Position numbers and translations under genes: made by a program. Below the pieces are notes generated by a model. That model was given only the letters and a program-made list of their open reading frames with translations, was not told where the DNA came from and ran no database searches. From NCBI GenBank assembly GCA_963727625.1, contig CAVSHR010000004.1:352001-416000 (forward strand): a stretch of 64,000 bases of DNA, in the 5' to 3' direction. The stretch comes from an uncultured delta proteobacterium. GTDB taxonomy: Bacteria; Desulfobacterota; Binatia; UBA9968. Of the stretch, positions 9,566 to 29,612 are shown one piece after another. How positions within the stretch are numbered: the first letter of the stretch is position 1; each line of letters starts with the position of its first letter.

Positions 9566-10945
9566 TCACCTGCGGCGCGAGGCGCCGTCAGGTGCATCGG
9601 CATGATAGGCCGCGCTTCCCAATGATTCGAGTCTTTTGTAAGCCGCGAGTGGATTTGTAAGTCGTTTCACGAAGTAGATAAAGACTCCGGTCAACAGAAG
9701 GTTCAGCGCGAGACTGAGCATCGAGATAGTCACGATCGGCCCGCCGATTCCATAACTCATCGAGATGACCAGGACGCCAGCGCCCACCTCGCCGCGAGGC
9801 CACATGCCGATCGCGAGGGCGAGTCGCTCCCGCCAATGCGCCTCTCGTCGATAACAAAACGCTGGGAACATCTTGCCGAGGTTGGAAATCAAAGTGACGG
9901 CGAGGACGTGCAGAATGATCTGAGGCCACCCCATGGGTGGCTGGGCGGCGGTGACGCGTCCAACTTGCTGCAAGCTCCCGATTTCGGCCGCCGCAGCCTC
10001 TGCTGCGGGAGCGCCAGCCCCGTGCAAACTGGGTTCGATAGTTTCGGCCATCGCTCCCCCTTGCACCGCGAGGTCCTCCACGAGAATCATGGGCATGGAA
10101 AGGCCGACGAGAACCATGAACACCGCGGCGACAATCGTGGTGACGCGCCTCTCGACAAGCGTTTCGAGCTCGTGGTGGGCGTCGCGCCCGTCGCCTCTAC
10201 CGCTTGTGCCATGCCCCGGATACGCCATGATGCACCCGATCACGAAGGCCGGGAGCAGTACCTCGATGTGAATGGGCACAGACTCATCGATCAGCTTGGA
10301 GCCCCTGTACACCAGCTCGCTGACGGTACTGATTACAACGCCATACGCAAGGACCCAAGGCCATGAAATGGGGATGCGGACGCGGTGCAGGAACGCGAAC
10401 GCGATCGCAAGCATGGTGCCCATCACCACCACGACCAGGCCGAGCTGCCAGGCCAGGCCAACCATCAGCATCTTGAGCGGTATCATCAACAGTACGGTGT
10501 CCAAGTCATCGAAGATGGCCAAGATTCGCGCCTTGCGGAACAGCCACGTCGCACCCAGCCCGGCCGCGGCGAGCATCGAGAACAGCACGCCCGCCGACGT
10601 CGGCGCTGCGAATCGCCCGGCGAGTAGAGTCTCCCGCCATGCGGCCAGAGTTGCCCAGGAGTCCGGCGGAAGCAGGACGAAGACGAGGTACGCCGTCACA
10701 AGGATCCACGGCAAGCTCGCAGCCGTGAACGCTACGGCGTAGTCCCAGCCGTACTGCCTAAGGTTCGACCTGTCGATATCGAATTCATAGCCGACACGAA
10801 TCATGATGAACGACAAGCCTGTCATGGTTGAGATGCGGATGACGTCATCGAGGCCCTCGTACGCGGCACCAATGGCCTCGGGCAGCCACTGCGATCCGAT
10901 CAGGCCGCTCAGGAGCAGCATCGAGAACAGCAGCACCTTTCTCAT
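9566..10945 (-). CDS. Cation:proton antiporter (Na+/H+ exchanger-like), integron cassette gene
   Basis: Multiple TM helices; AIFDDL, GK, PRGEVG motifs; preceded by attC core GTTAGGC. Confidence 0.75.
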   Translation of the reverse strand: MRKVLLFSMLLLSGLIGSQWLPEAIGAAYEGLDDVIRISTMTGLSFIMIRVGYEFDIDRSNLRQYGWDYAVAFTAASLPWILVTAYLVFVLLPPDSWATLAAWRETLLAGRFAAPTSAGVLFSMLAAAGLGATWLFRKARILAIFDDLDTVLLMIPLKMLMVGLAWQLGLVVVVMGTMLAIAFAFLHRVRIPISWPWVLAYGVVISTVSELVYRGSKLIDESVPIHIEVLLPAFVIGCIMAYPGHGTSGRGDGRDAHHELETLVERRVTTIVAAVFMVLVGLSMPMILVEDLAVQGGAMAETIEPSLHGAGAPAAEAAAAEIGSLQQVGRVTAAQPPMGWPQIILHVLAVTLISNLGKMFPAFCYRREAHWRERLALAIGMWPRGEVGAGVLVISMSYGIGGPIVTISMLSLALNLLLTGVFIYFVKRLTNPLAAYKRLESLGSAAYHADAPDGASRRR

Positions 10946-11007
10946 CGCAGCGATTCGTTCCCTTCTTCTGGCGTTTCCGTTTGCGGGCTGTAGTTGCCAC
11001 CTGCGCG

Positions 11008-11066
11008 GCCTAACGCTATGGGTGCAAGGCGCGTTCCACCGCGTTCTTCTCTAACCATGGTTAGCC
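11008..11066 (-). other. attC site (59 bp)
   Basis: Plus strand GCCTAAC...GTTAGCC. Confidence 0.65.
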
Positions 11067-11082
11067 TGGGTTCGTCTGCGCA

Positions 11083-11890
11083 AAAACGGGGTCAGAGAAC
11101 TTTTTCAATCCGAATCCCAGGCATCTTCCTAGGCCGGCCACGGGCTTCACCGACTAATCGTCGCCCAGTCATCGCCTCCACCTGTTTCTGAAACGTTTCT
11201 CGCCCAATCAAACGACCCCGCTGCGTTGCCTGGCGAATTTTATCCCATTCCATTTCGTCGCATTGCCTTTCTATCCACTCTCGATATTTGTCTTGTCTCT
11301 CGTCCGCAGTCAATCCCAATCCTTCGTACCAAGGATCCACATCCAGCAAACGATCCGAGATGCCCAATGCCCGGCTCCGATAACTACTCCAACGATAATC
11401 CCTCGGATGCTTCACAAGACAAGCTCTCACCGGATTCAGCTCAATATACCTGCTACACGCTATCAGGTATTCGTCACGACTGACCGCTGCGCTCTTAAAC
11501 CTTCCCTCCCACAACGTACCCGTACGACCATAAGTTTCATTCACGTATCGAACATATCGTCGTCCTACGCTCTGCATGAATCGACCGAGGCCACCAGCTT
11601 CTGCGGGTTCTACCAGCAGATGGAAATGATTCGTCATTAGAACGTACGCATCAATCCTGCAATGACATTTGACTTTGGCCTGTCGGAGACATTCCAAGAA
11701 GAATCGATAATCGTCGTCGGCAAAAAAGCTCGCGGCTCGATTGTTTCCGCGCTGAATAATGTGCTGGGGATAAGCGGGAATCGTGATTCGACGCAACCGC
11801 GCCATGGAATAACTCGATGTCTGCGAGTTTTGCCAGAAACTATCGCTAGATTAGAGCGTCGTCAAAGAAAAAGTTCTCTGACCCCGTTTT
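11083..11890 (-). mobile_element. RAYT-type element with perfect 23-bp inverted repeats inside a cassette
   Basis: AAAACGGGGTCAGAGAACTTTTT (11083-11105) and AAAAAGTTCTCTGACCCCGTTTT (11868-11890). Confidence 0.8.
11092..11805 (-). CDS. REP-associated tyrosine transposase (HUH, Y1)
   Basis: HIIQRGNNR, YVLMTNHFHLL (HUH), LWEGRF, RYIELNPVRA, WSSY. Confidence 0.9.
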   Translation of the reverse strand: MARLRRITIPAYPQHIIQRGNNRAASFFADDDYRFFLECLRQAKVKCHCRIDAYVLMTNHFHLLVEPAEAGGLGRFMQSVGRRYVRYVNETYGRTGTLWEGRFKSAAVSRDEYLIACSRYIELNPVRACLVKHPRDYRWSSYRSRALGISDRLLDVDPWYEGLGLTADERQDKYREWIERQCDEMEWDKIRQATQRGRLIGRETFQKQVEAMTGRRLVGEARGRPRKMPGIRIEKVL

Positions 11891-12114
11891 CCCTTTGAAG
11901 ACGAAACGGAAGCCGGCCCTGTATACTCCTTTGCCCGCTGGTGCGAAGCGTCCGCCGAGCCGGACCAAGGAAAGGTTCTTCGAACCGGCGATAAGGAACA
12001 GGCTCTTTCCCGAGCGTCGAAAGTTCGGCGCGAGACGGTTCGCGACTTCGGCCTCGAAAATCGCGTCGTAGTCCTCGCGTCTCACACCTGTCTCTCAAGG
12101 TCCCGACTTGGGGC

Positions 12115-12195
12115 GGCCAACGTTAAGGCTGAGAAGCCGCGGCCCGCGAGCCTTGCGAGCGGGTCCGTAGGTCTGTCTCAAGCCGCTTGTTAGGC
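12115..12195 (-). other. attC site (81 bp)
   Basis: GGCCAAC...GGCTGAGA...TCTCAAGCC...GTTAGGC imperfect palindrome. Confidence 0.85.
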
Positions 12196-12858
12196 GTCAT
12201 TGTGCCCTTGGCGCCGGAGTACAACATGGGTGGCTTTCTCCGACGCAACGAACTGAACGCATTCGTATCCCAGAGCGCGCACGTCAATCCCCTCGAACAG
12301 TCGCTCTCCCCCGCCCAGCAGGACCGGCGAGATAGCGACGTGCAGCTCATCGATGAGGCCCGTACGAAGATATTGCTGGATAGTGTTAGGTCCGCCGCCA
12401 ATGCGTATATCCATTCCGTTCGCTGCGTCGCGCGCCCGGTCAAGCGCCTCGTGAATACCGCCCGTGACGAAGTAGAATGTCGTTCCGCCTTCCATCTGGA
12501 TGGGCGGGCGCGCGTGATGAGTCAAGATGAAAGTTGGAACGTGATAAGGTGGGTTGTCCCCCCACCAGCCTTTCCAGTTCATGTCGGGCCAGGAACCGCG
12601 AATCGGTCCGAACATGTTTCTTCCGAGAATCCAGGCGCCAACATTCTTGAAGCCCCGCGCAGCGAAGTCGTCATCGATCCCCGTTGTGCCACCATCGGCG
12701 CCAAATAGGGTCCGTTGTAACGTGCGTGTCGGGACTAACCACTGATGCAAATCTGTCCCGCCCACGCCGAGCGGATTCCTGATGTCCTGATTCGGACCAG
12801 CTCCGTATCCGTCAAGCGAGATGGTAAAGCCCTCAACTCGGACGCGTGTCATTTTCAT
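12190..12858 (-). CDS. Dihydrofolate reductase / RibD C-terminal domain protein, cassette gene
   Basis: ISLDGY, ILGRNMF, IGGG, IDELHVAISPVLLGGGERLF. Confidence 0.9.
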   Translation of the reverse strand: MKMTRVRVEGFTISLDGYGAGPNQDIRNPLGVGGTDLHQWLVPTRTLQRTLFGADGGTTGIDDDFAARGFKNVGAWILGRNMFGPIRGSWPDMNWKGWWGDNPPYHVPTFILTHHARPPIQMEGGTTFYFVTGGIHEALDRARDAANGMDIRIGGGPNTIQQYLRTGLIDELHVAISPVLLGGGERLFEGIDVRALGYECVQFVASEKATHVVLRRQGHNDA

Positions 12859-12876
12859 GCCTTCCTTTCGATTGAC

Positions 12877-12963
12877 GCCTAACGCGATGCGGCTAAGCGG
12901 TGGCGAAGAAGGCTAGCTTTAAGGCGAGCGTTTTCACCATCAGGCTTAAGGCGCTGGTTCGGG
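12877..12963 (-). other. attC site (87 bp)
   Basis: GCCTAAC...GCTAAGC...GCTTAAGGC...GTTCGGG. Confidence 0.75.
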
Positions 12964-13512
12964 CGATGAACGCCGCAAGGCATTATGACGTGCAACGCGA
13001 GATCTGCTACCGCTGGAAACCAGATACCTCGCCATGTTGTCGACGTCATTCGAATACACCTCAACAACTGTATAAACCAAACTGCTCTTTGGTGCTTTCG
13101 ACGACTCACCGTGTCCGTTGAGAGAAATAACTTCTCCGTGAATAAGTGCGACGCGGTCGCCCACCTGAAACCTCTCAGAATTCGCCACCTGATACCATGG
13201 TCGCCCAAGTTGTTTCCAACAAAGTCTCAGATAATCTTCAATTGTTTCGTAAAGCAACGACTTCTGCTCCTCCACCTGGGAGGAGAATGCCACATCGGTC
13301 AACGATCCCATACCGCCGTAGATATTCTCAACTTGTCGCCCAAGAGAATATTTTTCTTCCCAGTTGTCAGCGTTTGTCTCCAATCTAGCCGCCACGGCGG
13401 CGAAGCGGCCTAATGTTTCCGCCCAATGCGGACTTTCCTGCAGAATGGTAGTCGAGAGAACTTGAAGCTGCTCGAACAATGACCTCTCCGCGGTATGTTC
13501 TGAATGCGCCAT
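12946..13512 (-). CDS. Hypothetical cassette protein (DUF6966-like N-terminus)
   Basis: IYGGMGSLTD motif; bounded by attC sites. Confidence 0.6.
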   Translation of the reverse strand: MAHSEHTAERSLFEQLQVLSTTILQESPHWAETLGRFAAVAARLETNADNWEEKYSLGRQVENIYGGMGSLTDVAFSSQVEEQKSLLYETIEDYLRLCWKQLGRPWYQVANSERFQVGDRVALIHGEVISLNGHGESSKAPKSSLVYTVVEVYSNDVDNMARYLVSSGSRSRVARHNALRRSSPEPAP

Positions 13513-13533
13513 AATCAGGTGCGATAGTTTGCG

Positions 13534-13614
13534 CCCTAACGAATCAAGCTGAAAGGACGAGACCAGCGAGCGCAGTGAGCGGGTCGAAGATCCGTCTCAA
13601 GCCGATCGTTAGAT
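13534..13614 (-). other. attC site (81 bp)
   Basis: CCCTAAC...GCTGAAAGGA...TCCGTCTCAAGC...GTTAGAT. Confidence 0.85.
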
Positions 13615-13623
13615 GGTGGAGCA

Positions 13624-14289
13624 CTACAAAAACTCGACATAGTCTAGCTTACGAGCAAGATCTACGGGTAAAAAATCGTCGTCCAACCATTGGCTTGGCT
13701 TACCTGTAACGATTACCACAAACCGAAATTCATTTTCTGTGCTGAAAATAGCAGGCTTTTGTGAATAAGACAGTGGCACCGAGGCGACCGTGAGTTGGTG
13801 CAGAGACTTCTCTCCTTTGTTGTACTGCACCACGCATCCTTTGACGCCTCCGCTAAATCCATAAGGGAGTGTTTCCACGAAAGCGCAAATATCATCGGCA
13901 AACTGCCTCGGCTGTTTGATTTTAACAACCCACGGCCCAAAACGCTGTCTTAGCAAATCGATGTCTACACTTGGAAGCGAGCAACTGAATATGAACTTCG
14001 GGTTCAGGAGTTCAATATGACTGTGAACGTATCCAGGTTGAGTCAGAGTCGTTGTCTCGACTGAATCGCGTGAAAAATCCACGGAGGTCACCATTCCATA
14101 GCGCTGGAAATGCCCCTGGCCTTCCGACGAGTCTTTTCGGTTCTCATCTTCAATCTCAGTGTAAATTCTTAGATTGCCCATACGGAATCTGCCGTGCTCC
14201 ACGAAGGCTTCTGCGTATGCTCTTTCTTTGAAGGCACGGAAGACAACTTTAAGAGAGTTTCCGATTGCATGGAGTTTTTTGTCCATCAT
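13624..14289 (-). CDS. Hypothetical cassette protein (DUF2971-like, possible ADP-ribosyltransferase fold)
   Basis: FR..., D..EG, IFSCS, VQY, K..F..ENEFRF motif series. Confidence 0.5.
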   Translation of the reverse strand: MMDKKLHAIGNSLKVVFRAFKERAYAEAFVEHGRFRMGNLRIYTEIEDENRKDSSEGQGHFQRYGMVTSVDFSRDSVETTTLTQPGYVHSHIELLNPKFIFSCSLPSVDIDLLRQRFGPWVVKIKQPRQFADDICAFVETLPYGFSGGVKGCVVQYNKGEKSLHQLTVASVPLSYSQKPAIFSTENEFRFVVIVTGKPSQWLDDDFLPVDLARKLDYVEFL

Positions 14290-14302
14290 CGTGCTGGAAT
14301 CG

Positions 14303-14402
14303 GTCTAACGGCTTGCCGCTCAGCCGCGAGCGGCGCGAAACATCAACTTTCAGATCGGCCATACCCACACGCGCCGATCGGCGGCTCAGCTGCTTGTTAG
14401 AC
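14303..14402 (-). other. attC site (100 bp)
   Basis: GTCTAAC...GCTCAGCCGC...GCGGCTCAGC...GTTAGAC. Confidence 0.85.
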
Positions 14403-14834
14403 CGCCTCCAAGCGTGCTTCGCCATTGGCGTCTTCAGGTATCCGCTTAAGTTCGTCGATAAATCTGTCGAGAAGAACGGGCTCCGAGCACAGGTACATCG
14501 TTGCACGGCTTGCCACCGTCTTTTTGCCGAATTCCCTAAAGTCAGACTCTTGCTCGCAAGTAATGAAAAGCCTTCCAGGCTTCGGAAAGTGAAACCGAGC
14601 ATGAAAGGCACCGTTACCGTACTCACAACCAAACTCACCGAAGCGGACTTCCAAAAGCCCTCCGTAAACATGCGATTTGAAAGCATCGAGATTTGCGATC
14701 GTTTCTGCGAGGTCACGGAACCCTACGTAGACTCGGTTTGCAAAACGGGACGTACCGTCAGCCACCTCGATGGTGAGCTCGACCATGTCGTCGTCGGACC
14801 ACACTCTGGATATGCGTATTCCTTGTTCCATCAT
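14397..14834 (-). CDS. Hypothetical cassette protein
   Basis: ORF fills the cassette; stop lies within the inverse core site. Confidence 0.7.
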   Translation of the reverse strand: MMEQGIRISRVWSDDDMVELTIEVADGTSRFANRVYVGFRDLAETIANLDAFKSHVYGGLLEVRFGEFGCEYGNGAFHARFHFPKPGRLFITCEQESDFREFGKKTVASRATMYLCSEPVLLDRFIDELKRIPEDANGEARLEAV

Positions 14835-14856
14835 GGCGTCGATTCTGTCGGTCTAA

Positions 14857-14908
14857 CGGGTCGGCTTACCCGTCGACCCGTTCGCACGACCGTCTGCGGT
14901 CGGGCGAA
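14857..14908 (-). other. 52-bp ORF-less micro-cassette with a 36-bp mini attC-like hairpin
   Basis: Lies between core sites GTTCGCC and GTTAGAC; internal inverse core TGCGAAC; two hairpins. Confidence 0.6.
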
Positions 14909-14998
14909 CGACAGAACTGACCGACGCGGGCGGTCAGTGACGTCCGAATTGGAAACTGACGCGGCCCGCCCGCGTTCGGTCCAGTGATCTGGTTCGGC
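14903..14998 (-). other. attC site (96 bp)
   Basis: GGCGAAC...ACTGACCGACGCGGGCGG...CCGCCCGCGTTCGGTCCAGT...GTTCGGC. Confidence 0.85.
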
Positions 14999-15005
14999 GT
15001 TCCCG

Positions 15006-15341
15006 TCATGAGTAGAATGAGAGCGCCAGAACCGCTGGCTCTCCCTTTTCGATCCTCCGCCAATTCACGAATGCGGAGCACTCGACCAGCGCATCGTAAA
15101 TCTCCGAGCATCTCTTCCTCAAGCCGCCGACGTCAGAAACGCACAAGACAAGCACATCTCCCGGTGCGACGTGAACAGAACTCAAGCCGTCGTCCGGTGC
15201 ATCCAAGGAAGTCATGCAATCATTCCAAGCGTCCATGTTCCGGCCGTAGAATCCAGGAAAGCCGAGCGCCTGCGAGAACTGATCGTGAAACGAATCCCAA
15301 TCGGTGATTTTGCTGCCGTCGATCTGAATGTTCTTGGGCAT
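15006..15341 (-). CDS. Barstar family protein, cassette gene
   Basis: IDGSKI.DW.SFH..F...LGFPGFYGRNMDAWNDCM. Confidence 0.9.
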   Translation of the reverse strand: MPKNIQIDGSKITDWDSFHDQFSQALGFPGFYGRNMDAWNDCMTSLDAPDDGLSSVHVAPGDVLVLCVSDVGGLRKRCSEIYDALVECSAFVNWRRIEKGEPAVLALSFYS

Positions 15342-15355
15342 CGCGATGCTCTTAC

Positions 15356-15448
15356 GCCGAACGACAAAACTCACCGACGCCGGGCCGAAGATGCTCGCCT
15401 TGGAACCGCAGCGCAATCCCGGCGTTCGGTGCAGTGATTTTGTTCGGC
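15356..15448 (-). other. attC site (93 bp)
   Basis: GCCGAAC...CACCGACGCCGGG...CCCGGCGTTCGGTG...GTTCGGC. Confidence 0.85.
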
Positions 15449-16021
15449 ACGTCCGTCCTCTCGGTACCAAGCGAGTAAGCCCAACAGCCCTGCTTGACTA
15501 CCGTGCCGTGCTATCATCTTGGTCGTGCCGTCGAGAAATCCACAAACGAGCTCTGTGAAAATATCGAGAGCTTCGAATCCCTTCGGAACTGGCTCCCCTG
15601 CGGCTTTGCGCCAGATGCTGATGCTTTCGGCGATGTGAGCCAAATCCTTATCGGTCGGAACATAATCGAGGCGATGCGCAACCTTGTTCCGCATTGCATT
15701 CAGCGCCTTCATCCCGGCGACGAAAAAGTGGAAATTGGCTTGGGGGTGGTCTGCAAGGTCAATCTTCTGAGCAAACGTGAGCCTTGCAGAACCGATTCCC
15801 GGAGACGCAGGATTTGCCGCCTCAAGGTAAGCAGTGAGGAAGTGCTCAAGAACAAGGTGACACTTAAGAATCATCAGCTTGGCTGAGTGGTCAGTGCTCC
15901 ATAGATGCCTATAGTGCGATTTGAACGCGTGGAAATCAGCCTCGATCTGGGGAGCGTCCGCAAGGAGCTTCCGGAAGACAGGTGACTTCTTGAATTCCTT
16001 CCTGAGGCTATCGGTGCTCAT
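15371..16021 (-). CDS. HEPN-like domain protein, cassette gene
   Basis: HLVLEHFL...LTFAQKIDL...LNAMRNKVAH (Rx4H); start set to MSTDS inside the cassette. Confidence 0.65.
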   Translation of the reverse strand: MSTDSLRKEFKKSPVFRKLLADAPQIEADFHAFKSHYRHLWSTDHSAKLMILKCHLVLEHFLTAYLEAANPASPGIGSARLTFAQKIDLADHPQANFHFFVAGMKALNAMRNKVAHRLDYVPTDKDLAHIAESISIWRKAAGEPVPKGFEALDIFTELVCGFLDGTTKMIARHGSQAGLLGLLAWYREDGRAEQNHCTERRDCAAVPRRASSARRR

Positions 16022-16041
16022 GGTGTGTTCAGATTTCTGCT

Positions 16042-16104
16042 GCCGAACGTCATGAATCAGGCTCTTCGGCGCTAGCCGAAATAGCCTGGATTCAGTTGTT
16101 CGCA
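16042..16104 (-). other. attC site (63 bp)
   Basis: GCCGAAC..TGAATCAGGCT.TTCGGC..GCCGAA.AGCCTGGATTCA..GTTCGCA. Confidence 0.85.
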
Positions 16105-17141
16105 TTATTCTTGGCGGCCTTCTTCGTCGCCGGTGCTGGCAGAAGGCGGAGTTGATCCACGGTCTTCTGGAGTTGCCGAACTTCCGTGAAGATGTCGTCA
16201 ACTCCCTTCTCTGCGTCTGCTGAAGAAGGACAGTCAACACGCCCACCCTTGTCGATGAAGACGAACAGATTGCGAATGCCGAGGCTGACGCCGTTGATTA
16301 CATCGCCGACTGGTTTCGGTTTCATCCCGGCAGTGAGTTCTCCGGTGATCTCCTGTGCCGATTTATCGGAGAATGCGTCAGCTTCGGCCTCCAGATCCTT
16401 CTCGATTTGCTTGTTCTCCAACTTCAGCTTCTTGATCTCCTGCACCTGCTTCCTGATGCTCAAGTACTTTTCAACGCGTGCAAGGACACAGTCCACGGCC
16501 TTGCCAACCATGAGGACTAGGCTGCAGGCTGTTGCAACGTCGATGATGAGAGGAGAAGACTTCTGAACAAACACGATCCTGGAGCTTTCAGGCTTCTCGT
16601 CGACCAGTTGGCTGAAAGCCCGAATGATCTTCGTCCATGAGTCAATCCATCCCTCAAATTCAACGATGTTGTCCACTGCCGCCTTCTCTGTGAAGGTGAT
16701 CTCAAGAAGGGCTTCGCCCTTTTGCAGAGCAACATCCTTGAGCGTGGGAATTCGCTGAAGGGCCGATTGAAGATTGCGGTTCCTCTCGAGGAACTGCTGG
16801 AAAGCCTTCTGTTTGGCATCCACTTTCTGAATCACGCCTTGGGGGTCGAAGTTCTCGTCGTACAGTATCGCCTCAAGCTCGCGGACCCCGGCGTCACCAA
16901 CGTACTCGCCGTATCCCAGCACATCGAACAGGTGAGTTTCGCTGTAGGTAAACGATATCTGATCGAATGAACGCAGCGCGCTGAACAGTTGGTCTTTCTG
17001 TTGAGATACTGGTTGTTGCCGGTTGTTGCGGAGCGAGTTGGCGAGAATCTGAAGAAACTGCTCATACAACTGCTCCGCTTTGCTCTTCTGTATGTGTTCC
17101 ACGAGTTTCGTGGCAAGCGTCTTCAGATCATCAACCTTCAT
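16092..17141 (-). CDS. Hypothetical 349-aa cassette protein
   Basis: Long ORF with AG-rich RBS, fills the cassette; coiled-coil-like segment. Confidence 0.75.
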   Translation of the reverse strand: MKVDDLKTLATKLVEHIQKSKAEQLYEQFLQILANSLRNNRQQPVSQQKDQLFSALRSFDQISFTYSETHLFDVLGYGEYVGDAGVRELEAILYDENFDPQGVIQKVDAKQKAFQQFLERNRNLQSALQRIPTLKDVALQKGEALLEITFTEKAAVDNIVEFEGWIDSWTKIIRAFSQLVDEKPESSRIVFVQKSSPLIIDVATACSLVLMVGKAVDCVLARVEKYLSIRKQVQEIKKLKLENKQIEKDLEAEADAFSDKSAQEITGELTAGMKPKPVGDVINGVSLGIRNLFVFIDKGGRVDCPSSADAEKGVDDIFTEVRQLQKTVDQLRLLPAPATKKAAKNNANN

Positions 17142-17160
17142 CGTGTCTTTCTCCTCTCAA

Positions 17161-17241
17161 TGCGAACGCTACGGCTGAACGGACAAGGCCAGCGAGCGCA
17201 GCGAGCGGGTCCGACGATCCGTTTCAAGCCGTTTGTTAGGC
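17161..17241 (-). other. attC site (81 bp)
   Basis: TGCGAAC...CGGCTGAACGGA...TCCGTTTCAAGCCG...GTTAGGC. Confidence 0.9.
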
Positions 17242-17955
17242 CACTCGCGGTGCACACGCCGCTGCCCAGAGAGCAACACTTGCATAAACCCCGACAACCG
17301 ATACTGGAATTGTGAACACGTCACCTTCCCCAAAGGCCCGAACGCCTGCGAGCACAAACCATGAAAGGAGTACCATTAAAAACGCCGTGGCCACCACACC
17401 CTTGGAGCCCCGTGGAACTTGTAAAACGGCGACCGGCAGTCTCACTCCGCGCGTTGAGAGATACCAACCGCATAGCACAAAGGGAAAACCAAGCACACAA
17501 AAGAACACGCTCCCTGCGATTGGGATTGCAATATTGTCCGCCCACCACGGATAGTCTCCACGCTCAAGTGTATATTGCAGCCACAGCAACTGTGCCGGAA
17601 CCCAACCCCACCATGCTGCGGTTGCCATCCAGAACATTCCTCGCCGAGTTGCTAGTGTCCCTAAATGAAACAGATCTCGAAACGTTCGAAGTCGAAGCAT
17701 GAGAAAAAGAGCAGCAATCGACACTCCGAGACTGATTACCGCGGCACCATGGTCCGAGCGTATGGCGGCTGGAGTCAAATTGTTAGCCTGTGCTTCGTAG
17801 AATTTCCGGGACAGATCGCCGGAAAGGTCGCGAGACACGTCCGCGGTCTCGAATTCCCGACGCCAACTTGGATCTGCGTACCTTGACTCGTCGACCGTCG
17901 GAGCAATGAGAATGATTCCGAAAAGTATGATGGCAATTGGGATGGAATAAACCAT
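17236..17955 (-). CDS. Hypothetical membrane protein, cassette gene
   Basis: About 6 hydrophobic segments; fills the cassette. Confidence 0.7.
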   Translation of the reverse strand: MVYSIPIAIILFGIILIAPTVDESRYADPSWRREFETADVSRDLSGDLSRKFYEAQANNLTPAAIRSDHGAAVISLGVSIAALFLMLRLRTFRDLFHLGTLATRRGMFWMATAAWWGWVPAQLLWLQYTLERGDYPWWADNIAIPIAGSVFFCVLGFPFVLCGWYLSTRGVRLPVAVLQVPRGSKGVVATAFLMVLLSWFVLAGVRAFGEGDVFTIPVSVVGVYASVALWAAACAPRVA

Positions 17956-17963
17956 TGTTGTTG

Positions 17964-18034
17964 GCCTAACGCTAGGTTAAGCCGCGCCGAACGAGCGCAG
18001 CGAGCGAGACGTCGGCTTGAACCGTTTGTTAGCC
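17964..18034 (-). other. attC site (71 bp)
   Basis: GCCTAAC..GGTTAAGCCG...CGGCTTGAACC..GTTAGCC. Confidence 0.9.
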
Positions 18035-18140
18035 GCCATGTTCTTCGCGGTTCATCTGCGGTCGATCTCCGGTACGGCGCTGGACGATCCTTCCAACCGC
18101 CGCGCTGATGTGGCGACGTAACCCCGCCGCCGTAGCGCCA

Positions 18141-18758
18141 TCATGATCGTCTGCGGCGAAGGCAGTAAAAGCGAGGGTGTGCTTTCTGCACAAAACGGGG
18201 TGCCCCGGTCAAATCGAATGCTTCCTCGTCGGTGATCGTCCATCCGTCATAAGCTTGTTCGATCTCCTCCCGACTGATGCCTCGCGGCAGGGGTCCTCTG
18301 CGACCCGGTGAGAACGCGTACATCAGGAGCGTGGCGTCCTCGGTGGCCACCGCCGTGACTTCACGGCTCACCGCCCGCACCTGCTCGGGCGGGAGGCCAT
18401 GTACGACGCCAAAGTCCAGGATGAGGCGAAATCCCGAGCCGATGCCTGCGGCCGTGAGCGCCGTGATGCTCCCTTCGACGAATAGAACCTCCACGCCGGC
18501 TCCGCGTGCGCGTTCGCGGGCGGTGCGCACCGCCTTCGGCACGATGTCGACGCCGGTTACCTCCCACCCGCGTTGAGCCAGGCGAACCGACCAGAACCCG
18601 GTGCCGCATCCGAGATCGAGCGCGCGCCCGTAGGGCGGTTCTCGACCGCGCTCCTCTCGGTCAAGGAGCGCGACGGCCTGTTCGCCTATAGGAAGTGACG
18701 GCATCCGCTCCCACGGCGTCATGCCGACCAGATACTGGAATTTGTAGAAAAGGCTCAT
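18141..18758 (-). CDS. Class I SAM-dependent methyltransferase, first cassette of array 1
   Basis: ALDLGCGTG, VTGVD, LILDFG..H. Confidence 0.9.
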   Translation of the reverse strand: MSLFYKFQYLVGMTPWERMPSLPIGEQAVALLDREERGREPPYGRALDLGCGTGFWSVRLAQRGWEVTGVDIVPKAVRTARERARGAGVEVLFVEGSITALTAAGIGSGFRLILDFGVVHGLPPEQVRAVSREVTAVATEDATLLMYAFSPGRRGPLPRGISREEIEQAYDGWTITDEEAFDLTGAPRFVQKAHPRFYCLRRRRS

Positions 18759-18782
18759 TCAACCTCCCGGTAACGCCTTGGC

Positions 18783-18811
18783 GGCTAACCATTAAGTATG
18801 CTGACCAGCAT
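18783..18811 (-). other. attI site of integron 1
   Basis: Core GTTAGCC (18783-18789) is the exact complement of cassette 1 inverse core GGCTAAC; no attC hairpin upstream; adjacent palindrome ATGCTGACCAGCAT. Confidence 0.75.
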
Positions 18812-18844
18812 TTTACAGTCTCTAAAATTCGAATGACGGCGGAA

Positions 18845-18873
18845 ATTCTCCTACCTTTTAAGATGCTTGTCAA
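18845..18873 (-). promoter_or_regulatory. Pc cassette promoter, integron 1
   Basis: TTGACA-17-GAGAAT pointing into the array. Confidence 0.65.
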
Positions 18874-18923
18874 AGCAAACCGGCGGCAGTCGTTGCCGGC
18901 AAAGGCTGACCAGCCTAAGATCA

Positions 18924-20012
18924 TTATGGCCGACCAAGAGGTTGGATCGCACCGATCCCATCCAGCGGGCTTCGGACTCCCCGCCCGCCACGGTTCAAGA
19001 CGTGGGTATAAATCATCGTCGTACTGACGTCGGCGTGTCCAAGTAACTCTTGCACCGTTCGAATATCATACCCATTTTCAAGTAGATGGGTGGCGAAGGA
19101 ATGGCGCATGCTGTGCGGGGCAGCTGGTTTTGTGATATCAGCCCTGAGCCTGGCCTCTTTGAACGCCTTTTGGAGAACGGACTCGTGGAGATGGTGTCGC
19201 CGTTTTTCTCCTGTGGCCCGATCGATGAAATGGCTAGTCGCAGGAAACACCCATTGCCAACCCCATTCTTTGCCTGCGCTCGGGTATTTTCGCTCCAGCG
19301 CATTTGGCAGACTGACGCGCCCCAGGCCCGCCTTCAGATCCTCTTCGTGCTGCCGCTTCACTGCCTCCAGGTGTTTGAGGAGAGGCTCTTTCACCATGGC
19401 GGGAAGCATAGTGTGTCTGTCTTTATCTCCCTTGCCGGCGCGAACGACTAGCTGGTTCCTGGAAAAGTCGACGTCCTTGACCCTAAGACGGCAACATTCC
19501 ATGAGCCGGAGCCCGGCACCATACAAAAGCATGGCCATCAACCACGGAGTCCCCTCCACACAAGCCAAAAGCCGCTGAACTTCTTCTTTCGTTAAGACGA
19601 CGGGCAGGCGTCTTTGCACTTTGGCGCGAACGACACCCTCAATCAGACCGATTTTTCGCTGCAGCACTGCCTGATATAAAAACAACAGCGCGTTGAAGGC
19701 TTGATTCTGCGTTGATGAGCTAACGTGAGACTCTGTCGCCAGGCTGGAGAGAAAACGGGCAATCTCTGGCTCACCCATTTCCGCCGGATGACGCTTGTTG
19801 TGGAAAAAGATGAACCGCTTGATCCAATGAACATAGCTGTCCTCGGTCTTGGGACTGTAATGCCGCGTGCGGATCGCTTGCCGTACCTGTTCGAGGAGTT
19901 TGGGCTTGTGATCGGCGGGCAGCGGTGAAGCTCCGACTCCAAGGTTTTTACCTCCGTCGATCACGGCAAGCGTGCGGTTCATTGATATGCGCGTATTTAC
20001 TGTTTCCATCAT
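18924..20012 (-). CDS. intI: Integron integrase
   Basis: [34 protein letters not shown] plus the IntI-specific insert [23 protein letters not shown]; AAGGAGG RBS. Confidence 0.97.
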
Positions 20013-20025
20013 GCGCCCTCCTTGA

Positions 20026-20210
20026 TTATCCCGCATAGCGTAGCGACTGCTTCCTCGAAAACTCCTTCGCCAACCGCTCATCTGGTTTTCCGTCGTACCG
20101 CGCCTGCAAGTCGAGCCAGTAACGCTCGGACATGCCGAAGTAGTGCGCGAGGCGATGGGCGATGTCGCCGTTGATCGGCCGCTGGCCCTGGACGATCTCG
20201 TCGATGCGCG
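20026..20210 (-). pseudogene. 3' partial duplicate of higA
   Basis: [43 protein letters not shown], near-identical to 20908-21090; N-terminus missing. Confidence 0.8.
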
Positions 20211-20302
20211 AGTGCACCCATTGATCTAAATTCACGGATCCCCAACGGTAACGCCAGGGCCACCACCCTAAGTGCGAATGGGCGAATACCAAAGGTTAAC
20301 GA

Positions 20303-20519
20303 TTAGAGAAGCTCGCGGAATTGCTCGACGGTCAGGCCGGCGTCACGAACGATACCGCCCATCGTAAATGCGTTAACAGGATTGTGGCGTGGAATAGTAA
20401 GAATCCGGCCTCCGCTGGACATCACGATATGCTTTCCTTGCCGCACGATCTGGAAGCCGGCCTTTTCAAGAGCACGAACGGCGTCAAGGTGATTGATTGA
20501 TGCCGGGAATCTTCGGCAA
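20303..20519 (-). pseudogene. hicA: HicA toxin, frameshifted by a 4-bp duplication
   Basis: TTG start PKIPGIN/HLDAVRALEKAGF..RQGKHIVM...IPRH..; extra AATC unit at ~20491-20501. Confidence 0.85.
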
Positions 20520-21758: not shown

Positions 21759-23303
21759 TTATTCGACCGTCCCCTGCCAGAACCACCGCCGCCTTACCCG
21801 ATCGTAATACAGCCACAACAAATCCCCGCGGCGGGTTTCGGCGAAGTAATACTCGCGCTGGATTTCCCGGTTCCACCAGCCGCCGGAAAAGACGTAGGGG
21901 CCAGTGAGCTTGTCGATGGTGCCGTGCTTGGGGCCGAGAATCAGCCAGCCGTCTTCGTGCGAGTGGTAGGGCCCGCCGGCGAGGCGAACCGGTTTGGCGG
22001 CGATGCGGCGCACCAACATATTTGGAGCGGAGAGGTTCAAGCCGTTCAAATCGTTCAACTGCTTCGCTCCGTTCAAAACGTTTTTGGGCAATTTAAGCTG
22101 GGTCAAGGGCTCCCAGGTAAAGCGCGCTTCGGGCAGGTGGCCGTCGGTGAGCTTGGCGTACACGACAGATTCTTCGCCGAATTCGGCGCGCAGGCGGGCG
22201 AGCGCGCGGTTGGCGGCGTCGAGGTCGCGCGCCGGCTGCTCGGCGAACAAACGAAGCTGCTCACGGGTCGCGGCGCAGGCTTCGGCGCTGAGCTCGATCT
22301 CGCTGACGCCGGCCGGTAGCTGCAGCGACTCCAGCCGCAACCGGACGAGATCCAATATCTGCGCGGCATCGAGCGTCGGTACCGCCGGACGCAGCGACTC
22401 ACGAAGCCAAGGGCCGTGATGGAGCAGCAAAGCGATCTCGAGCGCGAGCAGCGCCTGATGGCGTTGCGCCAGCGTCGCCAGCAGTGGATGGAGCAGTTGC
22501 TTGATCAAAAACAACAGTCGCGTGCTGTCTTCTTCCGGATCGTCGAGAAGATATTTTTGCCGGGCGGGCTCTTCGGGCGCCTGCGGTACGAGCGGCGTCC
22601 AGAGATCGCCGGCGGCCATGCGGTAAAGCCGGTGCGCCTTTTTGCCGAAGCGCTCGCGCAGCCCGCCCGGCGGCAGCGCCAGCAAGCCGCCGACGGTTTT
22701 GATGCCGAGCTTGAAAAGCATGTCGCGAAAAGCGGGCTCGATATTTAGTCGATTGAGCGGCACTTCGCGCGCGACGTTGCGTTCCTCAGCAAGATCGCGA
22801 AAGATCGTGATTCCCTCTCTCGCTTTGGCGACGGCGTAGCTGCCGAAGCGCGTGAAGCCGACGACAAAATGAGCGGTGAATCCTTGGGCGCATAGATCTT
22901 TCTGCATGGCGCAAGCCCACTGCTTCGGCGAGGCATAGAGCCTCTGCAAACCGGCGCCGTTGAGCCAGAAAACCCCGGGCTCCTCGGCCGACGGCTCAAC
23001 CTCGGGAGTAAAGCGCATGAGGCGGTGGGACAAGTCATCGACGGCTTTTTTATTTTCAGCGGCTGAAATCTCGCCGGCGCGGAGCGTCGAAGCCAGAGAA
23101 AACGCTGCGGCGTAGCGCAGGCCGGGCAGCACACCGTGGCGGCGCGCTTTTTCGTTCACCCAGAGGACCACGCCCTGCGGCTTGTCTTCGGCCACCACCG
23201 CCGCCGGATGGCCGGCCCAGTCGGGATGGCGCCGGAGCAAAAGCTGCAGCGGAAAAGCCGGCAGATCAACACAGGCCAGCCGGTCCGTTGTAAAGCTCTT
23301 CAT
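21759..23303 (-). CDS. imuB: ImuB, inactive Y-family polymerase homolog
   Basis: RLACVDLPAFPLQLL, FTPEVE, LGIKTVG.LLALP...LRERFG, C-terminal GP...GGWW...REYY..W. Confidence 0.88.
   Translation of the reverse strand: MKSFTTDRLACVDLPAFPLQLLLRRHPDWAGHPAAVVAEDKPQGVVLWVNEKARRHGVLPGLRYAAAFSLASTLRAGEISAAENKKAVDDLSHRLMRFTPEVEPSAEEPGVFWLNGAGLQRLYASPKQWACAMQKDLCAQGFTAHFVVGFTRFGSYAVAKAREGITIFRDLAEERNVAREVPLNRLNIEPAFRDMLFKLGIKTVGGLLALPPGGLRERFGKKAHRLYRMAAGDLWTPLVPQAPEEPARQKYLLDDPEEDSTRLLFLIKQLLHPLLATLAQRHQALLALEIALLLHHGPWLRESLRPAVPTLDAAQILDLVRLRLESLQLPAGVSEIELSAEACAATREQLRLFAEQPARDLDAANRALARLRAEFGEESVVYAKLTDGHLPEARFTWEPLTQLKLPKNVLNGAKQLNDLNGLNLSAPNMLVRRIAAKPVRLAGGPYHSHEDGWLILGPKHGTIDKLTGPYVFSGGWWNREIQREYYFAETRRGDLLWLYYDRVRRRWFWQGTVE
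22034..22085 (+). repeat. 9-bp-period GTTCAA array, in frame within imuB
   Basis: GGTTCAAGC CGTTCAAAT CGTTCAACT GCTTCGCTC CGTTCAAAA; encodes VLNGAKQLNDLNGLNL. Confidence 0.75.
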
Positions 23304-23862
23304 AGTTCCAAGTGGGACCGCGCCGCTTGTCTTTGAGAACGCTCAGCGCGCAAGCGAAACGGTTGTCCGCCAACCGATGCTTTTCGGCGTGGGCGCGCAG
23401 CGATACCAGCGACCCCAAAGAAAACGCCGTACGGTTTTTTTCGGTGAGACAAATCAGCGCGCTGTGATGACGATGGGCCAGGCCGGTCAGGCGCGTCTGC
23501 AGCGGCATGGGAATATCGGCGGCGCCGAGATCGAGCACGACGACGCCGAATCCGCCCGAGCGCAGAAGTTTTTCGCCGGCGCGGGCGATACTCTCCGCGT
23601 GCACTAAGCGAATGACGACGAGCGTGGCTAAATCGATGCCGCCATGTGCGACGTCCGGCGGATAAAAACAACTCTCCGCCAGCGTCACCCAGCCCACCGG
23701 TTCGCCGCGCTCTTGCGCCTCCCGAATCAAGGTGAAAGCGATGGTCAACGCAGCCGAAGCCGTCGAGCCGGAGATCTCCACCATCCGCCCGGCCACTTCG
23801 TCAAACGTCCACGGCGTCGGTACAACGGCGGGACGAAACTTCAGTGTGGAAGATGAGACCAT
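23266..23862 (-). CDS. imuA: ImuA, RecA-like protein
   Basis: GRMVEISG, FYPP...GIDL..L, EKLLRSGGFGVVVLD; overlaps the imuB start. Confidence 0.85.
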   Translation of the reverse strand: MVSSSTLKFRPAVVPTPWTFDEVAGRMVEISGSTASAALTIAFTLIREAQERGEPVGWVTLAESCFYPPDVAHGGIDLATLVVIRLVHAESIARAGEKLLRSGGFGVVVLDLGAADIPMPLQTRLTGLAHRHHSALICLTEKNRTAFSLGSLVSLRAHAEKHRLADNRFACALSVLKDKRRGPTWNYEELYNGPAGLC

Positions 23863-23922
23863 GGATAGAAACTCCGGGAAAGTTGTCTGCACTGAGCAGG
23901 ACGTAAAAAATGAGATCAGCAA

Positions 23923-28937: not shown

Positions 28938-29546
28938 CTAGAATTTTCTCAATAACCCGACGACCTTCCCAGCGATGCGAAACTCTCCCTGTGAAACGGT
29001 AATCGGGGCGTATTTTTCATTTTCCGCTTTAAGCGTGACGACACCGTCTTTTTTAAAAAATCGCTTTAACGTCGCCTCGCCGTCGATCACGGCGCAGACG
29101 ATCTCGCCGTTTTCCGCCCCTGCCTGTTGCTTCACGATCACCCGGTCGCCGTCCATGATGCCGGCGCCGATCATGCTGTCGCCTTTGACTTGGAGCGCGA
29201 AAGTTTTCCCGCTGCTCATGTCGTCGGGGATGGTGATGACGCCTTCAATATTTTCTTCGCTGAGAAAGGGTTTACCGGCGGGCACCCGGCCCAAAACCGG
29301 CGCTTCCCGAGTAGCGGTTAGAGCCGCTTTCCCTAAGGCGTTGACGACTTCGATGGCGCGCTTGCCGACCCGGCGGATGTAGCCCTTCTTTTCCAAGGCT
29401 TTCAGATGGTCGGAGACACCGTTGGTCGAGGCGATCTTGAAGCGCCGGCCGATCTCGTGGATCGACGGCGCGAAGCCCTTTTCTCGGATAGTCTTCAGCA
29501 GAAAATCGTAGATCGCCTTTTGCCGGTCGGTGAGCGATGGAAGCAT
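28938..29546 (-). CDS. lexA: SOS repressor LexA
   Basis: LTDRQ..IYDF, PS..EI, HLKALEKKGYI, GRVPAG cleavage site, GDSM, EATLKR. Confidence 0.96.
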   Translation of the reverse strand: MLPSLTDRQKAIYDFLLKTIREKGFAPSIHEIGRRFKIASTNGVSDHLKALEKKGYIRRVGKRAIEVVNALGKAALTATREAPVLGRVPAGKPFLSEENIEGVITIPDDMSSGKTFALQVKGDSMIGAGIMDGDRVIVKQQAGAENGEIVCAVIDGEATLKRFFKKDGVVTLKAENEKYAPITVSQGEFRIAGKVVGLLRKF

Positions 29547-29557
29547 GAAAGCTTGTA

Positions 29558-29577
29558 TACTGAAAATATTTTCAGTA
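29558..29577. promoter_or_regulatory. LexA operator within the lexA promoter spacer
   Basis: Perfect palindrome TACTGAAAATATTTTCAGTA within TTGACT-17-TATACA. Confidence 0.85.
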
Positions 29578-29612
29578 GTCAAGACGTGGCGGAAAGCGCG
29601 CAGGAACGTGCT

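What the first reader, a model, noticed from the sequence alone, without database searches (positions are those of the whole stretch)
14857..14908. 52-bp ORF-less micro-cassette whose excised circle would be a paired dumbbell
Seen: between two G|TT crossover points lies TTCGCCCGACCGCAGACGGTCGTGCGAACGGGTCGACGGGTAAGCCGACCCG (minus strand). Circularised, it pairs over 18 bp with one mismatch and is closed by 4-nt and 10-nt loops. Its attC-like part is only 36 bp, shorter than typical attC sites (~55 bp and up), and has no clear L boxes. Inference: a minimal parasitic or regulatory cassette (attenuator, RNA hairpin) or a captured hairpin intermediate of cassette formation.
Basis: partly seen in the sequence, partly recalled or inferred. 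Interest (0 to 1): 0.72.

Follow-up and report, generated by a model that had tools for sequence, protein, structure and literature searches.

The report
Decayed copy of tiny gene-less integron cassette
The 52-base unit is real and sits exactly between two integron cassette junctions, but it is a shrunken, probably dead copy of a 128-base gene-less cassette made almost only of hairpins, a family that is scattered through many environmental integrons and that I could not find described.

Summary
Observation confirmed. Window 14857-14908 (minus strand) lies between the G|TT crossover of the barstar cassette's attC and the G|TT that opens the next cassette, in a chromosomal integron (intI 18924-20081). 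As a circle it pairs over 18 bp with one mismatch and has 4-nt and 10-nt loops (0 of 1000 shuffles fold as well).

Interpretation partly supported. The 52-mer is not a cassette type of its own. It equals positions 1-46 plus 123-128 of a conserved 128-bp ORF-less cassette (50 of 52 bases identical), so 76 bp of the hairpin interior are missing.

The parent family has a 22-bp hairpin leader and a 106-bp attC-like three-way hairpin. One 29-nt pattern scan found it in 8 genome and 109 metagenome stretches. G precedes it in 104 of 105 instances. It occurs in 96 upstream and 69 downstream contexts, and in at least 4 contigs it is the first cassette after attI. Other deletion forms (51, 55, 57, 95, 97 bp) and fusions to ORF cassettes also occur.

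The 36-bp attC remnant has no central spacer, bulges or L box. It probably can no longer recombine and now rides as the 5' leader of the next cassette. The family, not this copy, is the interesting part.

The parts
14857..14908 (-). The 52-bp unit. It is an internally deleted copy of the 128-bp gene-less cassette family: positions 1-46 and 123-128 of the long form, 50 of 52 bases identical to its consensus.
14903..14908 (-). TTCGCC, the cassette-side part of the R' core. With G14909 it reads GTTCGCC.
   Evidence: Likeness of foreign contigs stops at 14905-14907.
14887..14902 (-). 16-nt cap hairpin CGACCG-CAGA-CGGTCG. It is the only 'cargo' of the family.
   Evidence: The loop hexamer, left free in the scan pattern, is the same in nearly all instances.
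14880..14886 (-). R''-like inverse core TGCGAAC. It is complementary to G+TTCGC of the unit's own start.
   Evidence: folds
14858..14879 (-). Remnant of the long P1 stem: GGGTCG, a 10-nt loop (ACGGGTAAGC, formerly the paired 5' arm), then CGACCC. The two private substitutions relative to the family consensus lie in the loop.
14851..14857 (-). GTTAGAC, the R' box in situ. The crossover is G14857|T14856, and TTAGAC belongs to the next cassette.
   Evidence: complementary to GTCTAAC at 14396-14402
14909..14998 (-). attC of the barstar cassette (R'' GCCGAAC 14992-14998, last G at 14909). The site shows an internal loop and bulges next to the R box.
14309..14856 (-). Next cassette: ORF 14397-14834 (145 aa, no family match) and its attC (14309-14402). 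The 52-mer now probably travels as its 5' leader.
18924..20081 (-). Integron integrase gene, on the same strand as the cassettes.
   Evidence: TIGR02249 at 467 bits against a cut-off of 265; Pfam Phage_int_SAM_4 plus Phage_integrase
18783..18789 (-). Probable attI crossover GTTAGCC, 135 nt after the intI stop. TTAGCC is complementary to the R'' box GGCTAAC of the first cassette.
   Evidence: Relatives have the family inserted about 131-134 nt after the intI stop.

Best explanation
The 52-mer is a decayed member of a family of cargo-less integron cassettes.

The intact form is 128 bp. It consists of TTCGCC, a 16-nt cap hairpin, an R''-like box TGCGAAC, a 17-bp stem (P1) carrying a three-way junction, and a final G. 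Its attC-like site (106 bp) is therefore nearly the whole cassette. The excised single strand would fold into an almost fully paired rod.

The integron integrase most likely inserts and excises this unit at G|TT like any other cassette. This step is inferred from the junctions and contexts, not shown.

In the window's copy, 76 bp were lost between two GCC triplets (long-form positions 47-122). This removed most of the 3' arm of P1 and the junction. What remains is an R box plus a 6-bp stem and a 10-nt loop, which leaves no room for the second integrase-binding (L) box. That it cannot bind a second integrase is inferred.

The copy therefore probably cannot recombine at its own 3' site. It is now carried passively as the 5' leader of the next cassette (14309-14856).
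For: (1) Deletion alignment. Element positions 1-46 match long-form positions 1-46 at 44 of 46, and the last 6 match positions 123-128 at 6 of 6. The 10-nt loop is the former 5' arm of P1, now without its partner.

(2) The parent is real and abundant. The 29-nt pattern found 8 stretches in genome contigs and 109 in metagenome contigs. That gives 105 distinct instances including the window, and G precedes 104 of them. By my closure rule, 63 of the 105 instances are 127-130 bp and end G|TT. Three more long forms failed the rule only because of stem mismatches.

(3) Contexts. 96 clusters among 102 upstream flanks and 69 among 72 downstream flanks.

(4) First position. The unit starts about 131-134 nt after the stop of a co-oriented IntI homologue (72-85% identity) in L061, L037, L068/L116 and L024.

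(5) Structure. 98.5% of cells pair, against 32-45% with slid partners. Nine pairs carry compensatory changes.

(6) Other decay products of the same parent exist: 51, 55, 57, 95 and 97 bp forms. The 95-bp deletion occurs on two variant backgrounds. Seven copies are fused to ORF cassettes, and a 39-nt remnant is fused to an ORF cassette elsewhere in this genome.

(7) Short copies carry more substitutions. All 6 A-type short copies differ from consensus in the 23 shared, unascertained positions, against 11 of 47 long A copies.

(8) Short forms stay linked to their downstream cassette. L029/L041 and L060/L087 share the downstream cassette but differ upstream.

(9) The remnant site has no internal loop or bulge, unlike the four normal attC sites of this array that I folded.
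Against: The stems of the window's copy are intact and both private substitutions lie in the loop, which could reflect selection (chance probability about 0.18 by my own arithmetic).

The 52-bp deletion type is seen with four different downstream sequences (window, L087/L060, L112, L110). This is also what an independently mobile micro-cassette would give.

The intact long form itself lacks the central spacer and bulges, yet it evidently moves. So absence of these features does not prove inactivity.

Integrase action was not tested, and neither reads nor RNA were available for this locus.

All family members were found through one exact 29-nt pattern, so the sample is biased towards recent, near-identical copies.
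Confidence: 0.7

Rival explanations
1. The 52-mer is itself a still-active micro-cassette, the smallest known. The integrase of this lineage would need only the R box and a short stem. In that case the 52-bp type has spread on its own between arrays.
For: Proper G|TT on both sides, and its start is complementary to its own R''. It folds as a near-perfect dumbbell. The same 52-bp architecture is found next to four different downstream sequences. The parent also lacks spacer and bulges yet is mobile.
Against: Deletions at short direct repeats recur in this family. The 95-bp type occurs on two backgrounds, there are separate 55- and 57-bp types, and the G38A variant is seen in long, 57- and 52-bp forms. 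The shared 52-bp endpoints at GCC..GCC therefore need no common origin. The 52-bp-type copies each carry different private substitutions, two of which break the stem (L112, L110). Short forms stay linked to their downstream cassette in both pairs available. Only 13 bp of helix are left for two integrase monomers (inference from the known attC architecture, PMC5027507, passages read).
Confidence: 0.15
2. The remnant has been co-opted as a regulatory hairpin pair in the mRNA leader of the next cassette, affecting stability, translation or attenuation.
For: It ends 22 nt before the ATG at 14834, on the transcribed strand, and forms two stable hairpins.
Against: There is no T-run, and the terminator scan reports no site in 14857-14908. 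There is no Rfam match. Equivalent remnants precede unrelated cassettes. I had no expression data.
Confidence: 0.08
3. It is an assembly artefact. The genome really holds the 128-bp form and the assembler or polisher collapsed the hairpin.
For: Read support could not be checked. Palindromes are error-prone in some sequencing chemistries (general knowledge).
Against: The inverted arms are only 17 bp. The copy has two private substitutions. Comparable short forms occur in several independent assemblies.
Confidence: 0.04
4. It is a REP-type palindrome spread by the REP-associated tyrosine transposase genes that are numerous in this genome.
For: A RAYT-like gene lies in the same array (11092-11805; NF047646 at 75.6 bits, below its cut-off of 80). 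The genome holds over 30 paralogues.
Against: There is only one full and one partial copy in 6.6 Mb. All other copies sit at G|TT cassette junctions.
Confidence: 0.01

Closest known systems
Canonical integron gene cassettes and attC sites (R''-L''...L'-R' hairpins recombined by IntI as folded single strands)
   Same: The unit lies in an array behind intI and attI. It has G|TT crossovers at both ends and AAC/GTT core triplets. Its start is complementary to its own inverse core. The parent's site length (106-112 bp) is inside the published 57-141 bp range, and branched terminal structures are known in chromosomal integrons (PMC5027507, passages read).
   Different: There is no cargo gene. The parent's site has a continuous 23-24-bp helix from the R box onward, with no unpaired central spacer and no extrahelical bases. 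The 52-mer's site is 36 bp, below the published minimum. intI is co-oriented with the cassettes.
Non-coding / ORF-less / gene-less cassettes (Vibrio arrays, PMC1382264; Vibrionaceae promoter cassettes, PMC11014356; oral Treponema and Xanthomonas sRNA cassettes as summarised in PMC8876359 section 2.4.3; passages read in all three)
   Same: They have no ORF, are highly conserved, are multi-copy within and between arrays, and are restricted to one lineage. Boucher et al. 2006 already raised 'selfish elements' as one reading of such cassettes.
   Different: The tested Vibrionaceae gene-less cassettes correspond in size to 450-650-bp control fragments, carry promoters or sRNAs, and end in a classical attC. 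Here the unit is 128 bp (52 bp in the window), has only a 16-nt hairpin besides the site, and the scan of the window's copy and its flanks found no promoter-like site.
Fused cassettes formed by truncation of an attC site (for example blaGES-1/aacA4, PMC8876359 section 2.4.4, legend and passage read)
   Same: Loss of part of an attC joins two cassettes into one mobile unit. This is what I propose for the 52-mer plus the next cassette, and what the fused copies (L018, L035, L104, L040, and C4:791939) show.
   Different: Here the upstream partner is itself cargo-less, so the product looks like an ordinary cassette with a structured leader.
Other elements that target attC sites: group IIC-attC introns and IS1111-attC insertion sequences (introns: PMC3001079 abstract in a search listing; IS1111-attC recalled)
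   Same: They are found inserted in or next to attC sites.
   Different: Those elements are 1.3-2 kb and encode their own enzyme. This unit encodes nothing and is bounded exactly by the integrase crossover.

Membership tests
Integron gene cassette | Lies in a cassette array served by an integron integrase and an attI | tested here: met
   intI 18924-20081 matches TIGR02249 at 467 bits (cut-off 265). Cassettes follow on the same strand from 18788 downwards.
Integron gene cassette | Bounded on both sides by the G|TT crossover of core sites | tested here: met
   G14909|TTCGCC and G14857|TTAGAC. The left junction is confirmed by foreign contigs that diverge at 14905-14907.
Integron gene cassette | The first bases after the crossover are complementary to the cassette's own inverse core (R'') | tested here: met
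   TTCGC against GCGAA, 5 of 6 with the sixth mismatched. Read by eye, the ORF cassettes c1-c7 and c9 show 5-6 of 6; c8 has no clear R''.
Integron gene cassette | Own attC with L boxes, unpaired central spacer and extrahelical bases, 57-141 bp long (PMC5027507) | tested here: not met
   36 bases from R'' to R', a 9-bp continuous stem and a 10-nt loop, with no internal loop or bulge. Four neighbouring attC sites show these features.
Integron gene cassette | The same unit occurs between different neighbours (mobility) | tested here: inconclusive
   The exact 52-mer is unique in the genome. The 52-bp type is seen with 4 different downstream sequences, but recurrent deletion explains that equally well. 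For the 128-bp parent the feature is met: 96 upstream and 69 downstream contexts.
128-bp gene-less cassette family defined here | 29-nt leader: TTCGCC, cap hairpin, TGCGAAC | tested here: met
   29 of 29 identical to the family consensus. The pattern was taken from the window, so this is the basis of the search, not an independent test.
128-bp gene-less cassette family defined here | 17-bp P1 stem enclosing a three-way junction (P2/P3 and P4) | tested here: not met
   Only the 5' arm (15 of 17) and the last 6 bases remain; 76 bp are missing. The window's copy is therefore a deletion derivative, not an intact member.
REP elements of REP-associated tyrosine transposases | Many dispersed copies in the genome | tested here: not met
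   One full and one partial copy in 6.6 Mb
Intrinsic terminator | G+C-rich hairpin followed by a T-run | tested here: not met
   The terminator scan reports no site in 14857-14908. The hairpins are followed by TGCGAAC and by TTAGACC.
Any Rfam RNA family | Covariance-model match | tested here: not met
   No relevant match at E up to 1 in window 10500-20500 or in 7 loci carrying long or short forms

The most novel reading that the evidence does not exclude
The 52-bp form is not dead. It would be the smallest working integron cassette. Its excised single strand is an end-less 18-bp dumbbell that the integrase of this co-oriented integron lineage can cut and re-insert using only an R box and a 6-bp stem. 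The 128-bp parent and its 52-bp offspring would then be pure parasites of the integron machinery. By inserting next to ordinary genes, they could also supply the recombination site that turns a gene into a cassette.
Probability: 0.15. Interest if true: 0.85.

Novelty: new variant of a known kind. Interest (0 to 1): 0.6.

Why it matters
Integron cassettes are normally thought of as a gene plus a recombination site. This finding points to a family that is nearly all recombination site: 22 bp of hairpin plus a 106-bp attC-like fold. It is near-identical in about a hundred different array contexts and is often the first cassette after attI, so it appears to be inserted often and recently.

That makes three questions testable with one short synthetic substrate:

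- How little DNA does an integron integrase need?
- Are the central spacer and extrahelical bases really required outside the few model integrases?
- Do cassettes exist that serve only themselves?

The decay series (128, 97/95, 57/55/52/51 bp, then fusion to the next cassette) also shows one way in which structured 5' leaders and fused cassettes arise. The window's own copy matters mainly as the lead to that family.

Tried and rejected
REP-type element: rejected on copy number.

Known RNA family: no Rfam match in the window's array or in 7 loci.

Terminator or promoter: no site in 14857-14908 and no promoter-like site in 14300-15500.

Group II intron end: I considered this because of the GTGCG motif after the cap hairpin. 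I dropped it because the conserved unit is only 128 bp and ends at G|TT.

IS200/IS605-like hairpin element: dropped because the upstream flanks share only the final G and no fixed tetranucleotide.

Spread in the host's own phylum: the 29-mer with up to 3 mismatches was found in none of the 400 other genomes sampled from the phylum (339 of the 401 searched genomes are at least 90% complete). It was found only at two places in G000. This covers the genomes searched only.

Viral contigs and plasmids: no match for the pattern or the long form.

Read-level check of the 52 bp: the 4 runs laid hold only the barstar cassette and its attC. Nothing covers 14400-14875, so neither support nor variants could be read.

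Strand of the functional fold: I counted G.T-type against A.C-type non-standard cells by hand from the table, about 19 against 11. This shows no clear bias and does not separate RNA, top-strand or bottom-strand function.

Earlier notes of this scan by place and by sequence: nothing.

Literature. Searches for ORF-less, non-coding or empty cassettes, for integron with Binatia, for 'no ORF' cassettes in metagenomes, and for selfish or smallest cassettes gave no listing that describes a cassette of this size or a hairpin-only cassette. Only listings and the passages named in this report were read. Subscription journals and supplements were not seen.

Full report
**Setting**

The window holds a chromosomal integron on the minus strand. 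The ORF 18924-20081 matches the integron-integrase model TIGR02249 at 467 bits against a cut-off of 265. It also has the Pfam pair Phage_int_SAM_4 plus Phage_integrase.

Unlike the textbook arrangement, intI lies on the same strand as the cassettes. Reading the minus strand, a probable attI crossover G|TTAGCC lies at 18789|18788, 135 nt after the intI stop. A row of cassettes follows:
- a methyltransferase cassette
- a 239-aa membrane protein
- a 349-aa protein
- an ORF that runs through its attC
- a barstar-like ORF (15006-15341; Pfam Barstar)
- the 52-mer
- a 145-aa ORF (14397-14834)
- further cassettes down to below 11000

For cassettes c1-c7 and c9, the six bases after each G|TT are complementary (5-6 of 6) to that cassette's own inverse core (by eye); c8 has no clear R''. 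Examples are TTAGGC with GCCTAAC, TTCGGC with GCCGAAC, and TTAGAC with GTCTAAC. This is what excision and re-insertion of circles predicts.

The 52 bases are at 14857-14908. On the left they follow the last G of the barstar cassette's attC. On the right they end in G before TTAGAC, which belongs to the next cassette.

Contigs from four unrelated metagenome runs contain the barstar cassette and its attC. Their likeness to the window ends at 14905-14907 and at 14998 or 15369, and each continues with different sequence. The left crossover is therefore a junction at which neighbours are exchanged in nature.

The unit's own start (TTCGC) is complementary to its internal GCGAA, as in the ORF cassettes. 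Circularised, it pairs over 18 bp with one C.T mismatch and has loops of 4 and 10 nt. With DNA parameters, the circular fold is lower than all of 1000 dinucleotide shuffles on either strand (z -5.7 and -7.4).

The exact 52-mer occurs once in the 6.6-Mb genome.

**What it derives from**

A blastn-short search of the genome found the first 35 bases again (33 of 35) at C4:791939. There they open an ORF-bearing cassette in a second array.

I then scanned two public collections with the first 29 bases, leaving the hairpin loop and its closing pair free. This gave 8 stretches in genome contigs and 109 in metagenome contigs. The genome contigs are two MAGs labelled Candidatus Binatia and one labelled uncultured delta proteobacterium.

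After removing overlaps there are 105 distinct instances including the window, and G precedes 104 of them. By a closure rule (first six bases after GAAC pair with six bases followed by G+TT), the lengths are:

| Length (bp) | Instances |
|---|---|
| 128 | 52 |
| 129 | 8 |
| 130 | 2 |
| 127 | 1 |
| 97 | 1 |
| 95 | 2 |
| 57 | 1 |
| 55 | 3 |
| 52 | 3 (one is the window) |
| 51 | 1 |
| unclassified | 31 |

Of the 31 unclassified instances:
- 17 are cut by the end of the contig or locus.
- 3 are long forms with two stem mismatches.
- 7 are fused to an ORF cassette without a second G|TT.
- 2 have the leader palindrome inverted.
- 2 are further short forms (L027, and L110, which is of the 52-bp type).

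The bases after the closed forms are TTAGGC, TTAGAC, TTATGC, TTCGGC and the like. These are the starts of ordinary cassettes, followed by diverse ORFs.

**The 52-mer is a deletion derivative**

Aligned with the long form, window positions 1-46 match long-form positions 1-46 at 44 of 46. The last six bases match positions 123-128 at 6 of 6. The missing 76 bp lie between two GCC triplets.

The 10-nt loop of the window's second hairpin is the former 5' arm of the long stem, left without its partner. This fits deletion, not insertion.

Other deletions nest within the same parent. A 95-bp form is missing the stretch between two GGCGG repeats and occurs on two variant backgrounds (L039, L016). There are also 55-, 57- and 97-bp forms. 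The genome itself holds no intact long copy. It has only the 52-mer and a 39-nt remnant at C4:791939-791977 fused to an ORF cassette.

**The parent family**

I aligned 45 distinct long copies, in two subfamilies of 30 and 15. RNAalifold gives a leader hairpin, a 15-17-bp stem P1, and a three-way junction of P2/P3 and P4.

On that structure, 98.5% of cells pair, against 32-45% when partners are slid by 1-3 columns. Nine of 41 pairs show changes on both sides. Three caveats apply. The structure was predicted from the same alignment. Most double changes separate the two subfamilies. The leader helix is invariant by the way the copies were found.

As a single-stranded circle, the long form pairs 108 of 128 bases at -61 to -65 kcal/mol.

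The unit sits in 96 different upstream contexts (102 flanks) and 69 downstream contexts (72 flanks), clustering at 85% identity over 100 bases. In L061, L037, L068/L116 and L024 it begins about 131-134 nt after the stop of an IntI homologue (72-85% identical) on the same strand. That is the attI position, matching the 135 nt in the window. Every IntI hit in these loci is co-oriented with the unit.

There was no match in Rfam, in viral contigs or in plasmids.

**Mechanism**

Shown:
- the junctions are integrase-type crossovers
- the contexts are many and varied
- the fold is conserved
- the window's copy lacks 76 bp of it

Inferred: the family is inserted and excised by IntI through its own 106-bp attC-like hairpin (TGCGAAC ... 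G|TT). The 16-nt cap hairpin merely closes the other end of the circle.

The site is unusual. From the R box onward the helix is continuous. It has no unpaired central spacer and no extrahelical bases, features that Nivina et al. list as typical of attC sites (PMC5027507, passages read). The four ORF-cassette attC sites of this array that I folded do show them. The same paper reports that deleting the extrahelical bases had no noteworthy effect on bottom-strand recombination for some sites (passage read). So absence of these features is not proof of inactivity.

In the 52-mer only the R box plus 6 bp remain, too little for a second integrase-binding box (inference). Four observations fit a dead 3' site:
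- All 6 A-type short copies carry at least one substitution in the 23 shared positions not fixed by the search, against 11 of 47 long A copies.
- Two 52-bp-type copies (L112, L110) have a broken stem.
- In both pairs where a short form is seen twice (L029/L041, L060/L087), the downstream cassette is the same while the upstream neighbour differs.
- Seven copies, plus one elsewhere in this genome, have lost the 3' junction altogether and are fused to an ORF cassette.

I therefore read 14857-14908 as a relic that now belongs, as a structured 5' leader, to the cassette at 14309-14856.

**What speaks the other way**

The window's two private substitutions both lie in the loop and the stems are intact. 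The 52-bp type occurs with four different downstream sequences. An active micro-cassette is not excluded, and I give it 0.15.

A regulatory role for the leader is possible but has no support. The terminator scan reports no site in the unit, there is no promoter-like site nearby, and I had no RNA data.

An assembly artefact could not be tested with reads. It is unlikely given the 17-bp arms, the private substitutions and the similar short forms in independent assemblies.

**Comparison with what is known**

Non-coding cassettes are known. They include paralogous, conserved, lineage-restricted families in Vibrio arrays, for which a selfish nature was already suggested (PMC1382264, passages). The tested Vibrionaceae gene-less cassettes correspond in size to 450-650-bp control fragments and carry promoters (PMC11014356, passages). 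ORF-less cassettes of oral Treponema and sRNA cassettes of Xanthomonas are summarised in a review (PMC8876359 section 2.4.3, passage).

Fusion of cassettes through truncation of an attC is also known (same review, section 2.4.4).

What differs here is the size, the absence of anything except the site and a cap hairpin, the near-perfect self-pairing, and the missing spacer and bulges. My seven literature searches gave no listing that describes such a unit. I read listings and passages only, and subscription journals are not covered.

Earlier unchecked notes of this scan report tiny hairpin-only cassettes (54-157 bases) and self-pairing gene-less cassettes in other genomes. I did not test those notes, and they are not independent evidence.

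**Verdict**

It is a cassette-like unit of a cargo-less lineage, but a deleted and probably inert copy, not a minimal cassette type and not a formation intermediate. The 128-bp family behind it is a new variant of a known kind and worth an experiment.

Noticed in passing
window 18924-20081 and loci L061, L037, L068, L024, L019, L049: intI lies on the same strand as its cassettes, with the attI crossover about 131-135 nt after the intI stop. Every IntI hit in the fetched loci is co-oriented with the unit.
   Followed up: partly
window 21759-23922 and 28938-29582: SOS-type genes lie next to the integron: a Y-family polymerase-like ORF (Pfam IMS), a RecA-like ORF that overlaps it, and a LexA gene.
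   Followed up: no
window 11092-11805: A REP-associated tyrosine transposase-like gene (NF047646 at 75.6 bits, below its cut-off of 80) sits inside the cassette array between two attC-like ends. The genome holds more than 30 paralogues.
   Followed up: partly
G000:C4:791939-791977 (L120): A second remnant of the 128-bp family: the first 39 bases (37 of 39 identical) follow a normal attC and run directly into the leader of an ORF cassette, with no second G|TT. Three fusions (this one, L018, L040) break at the same position, after GGGTCGGCGG.
   Followed up: partly
loci L081, L089, L091; L020, L031; L043: In three long copies the whole interior between the P1 arms is inverted. In two copies the leader palindrome is inverted (loop TCTG, R boxes swapped). 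One copy has P1 arms from two different variants. These look like flips and exchanges between inverted repeats.
   Followed up: no
window 14832-14857 against 14903-14998: The first 22 bases of the next cassette resemble the bottom strand of the barstar attC arm: 17 identities in 22 columns, and 13 of 2000 shuffles score as well. An 8-bp complementarity (TTCTGTCG / CGACAGAA) brackets the 52-mer.
   Followed up: partly
window 14907-15369: The barstar cassette, and especially its attC type, recur in contigs of sludge, wastewater and freshwater metagenomes with other neighbours. The attC part reaches far higher summed contig depth than the ORF.
   Followed up: no
window 12190-12858 and L005: The RibD_C cassette protein is 98.7% identical over 155 residues to one encoded in a MAG labelled uncultured delta proteobacterium. 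That MAG carries four long copies of the family.
   Followed up: no
window 15371-16030: The ORF of the fourth cassette reads through its own attC and stops only in the R' region.
   Followed up: no
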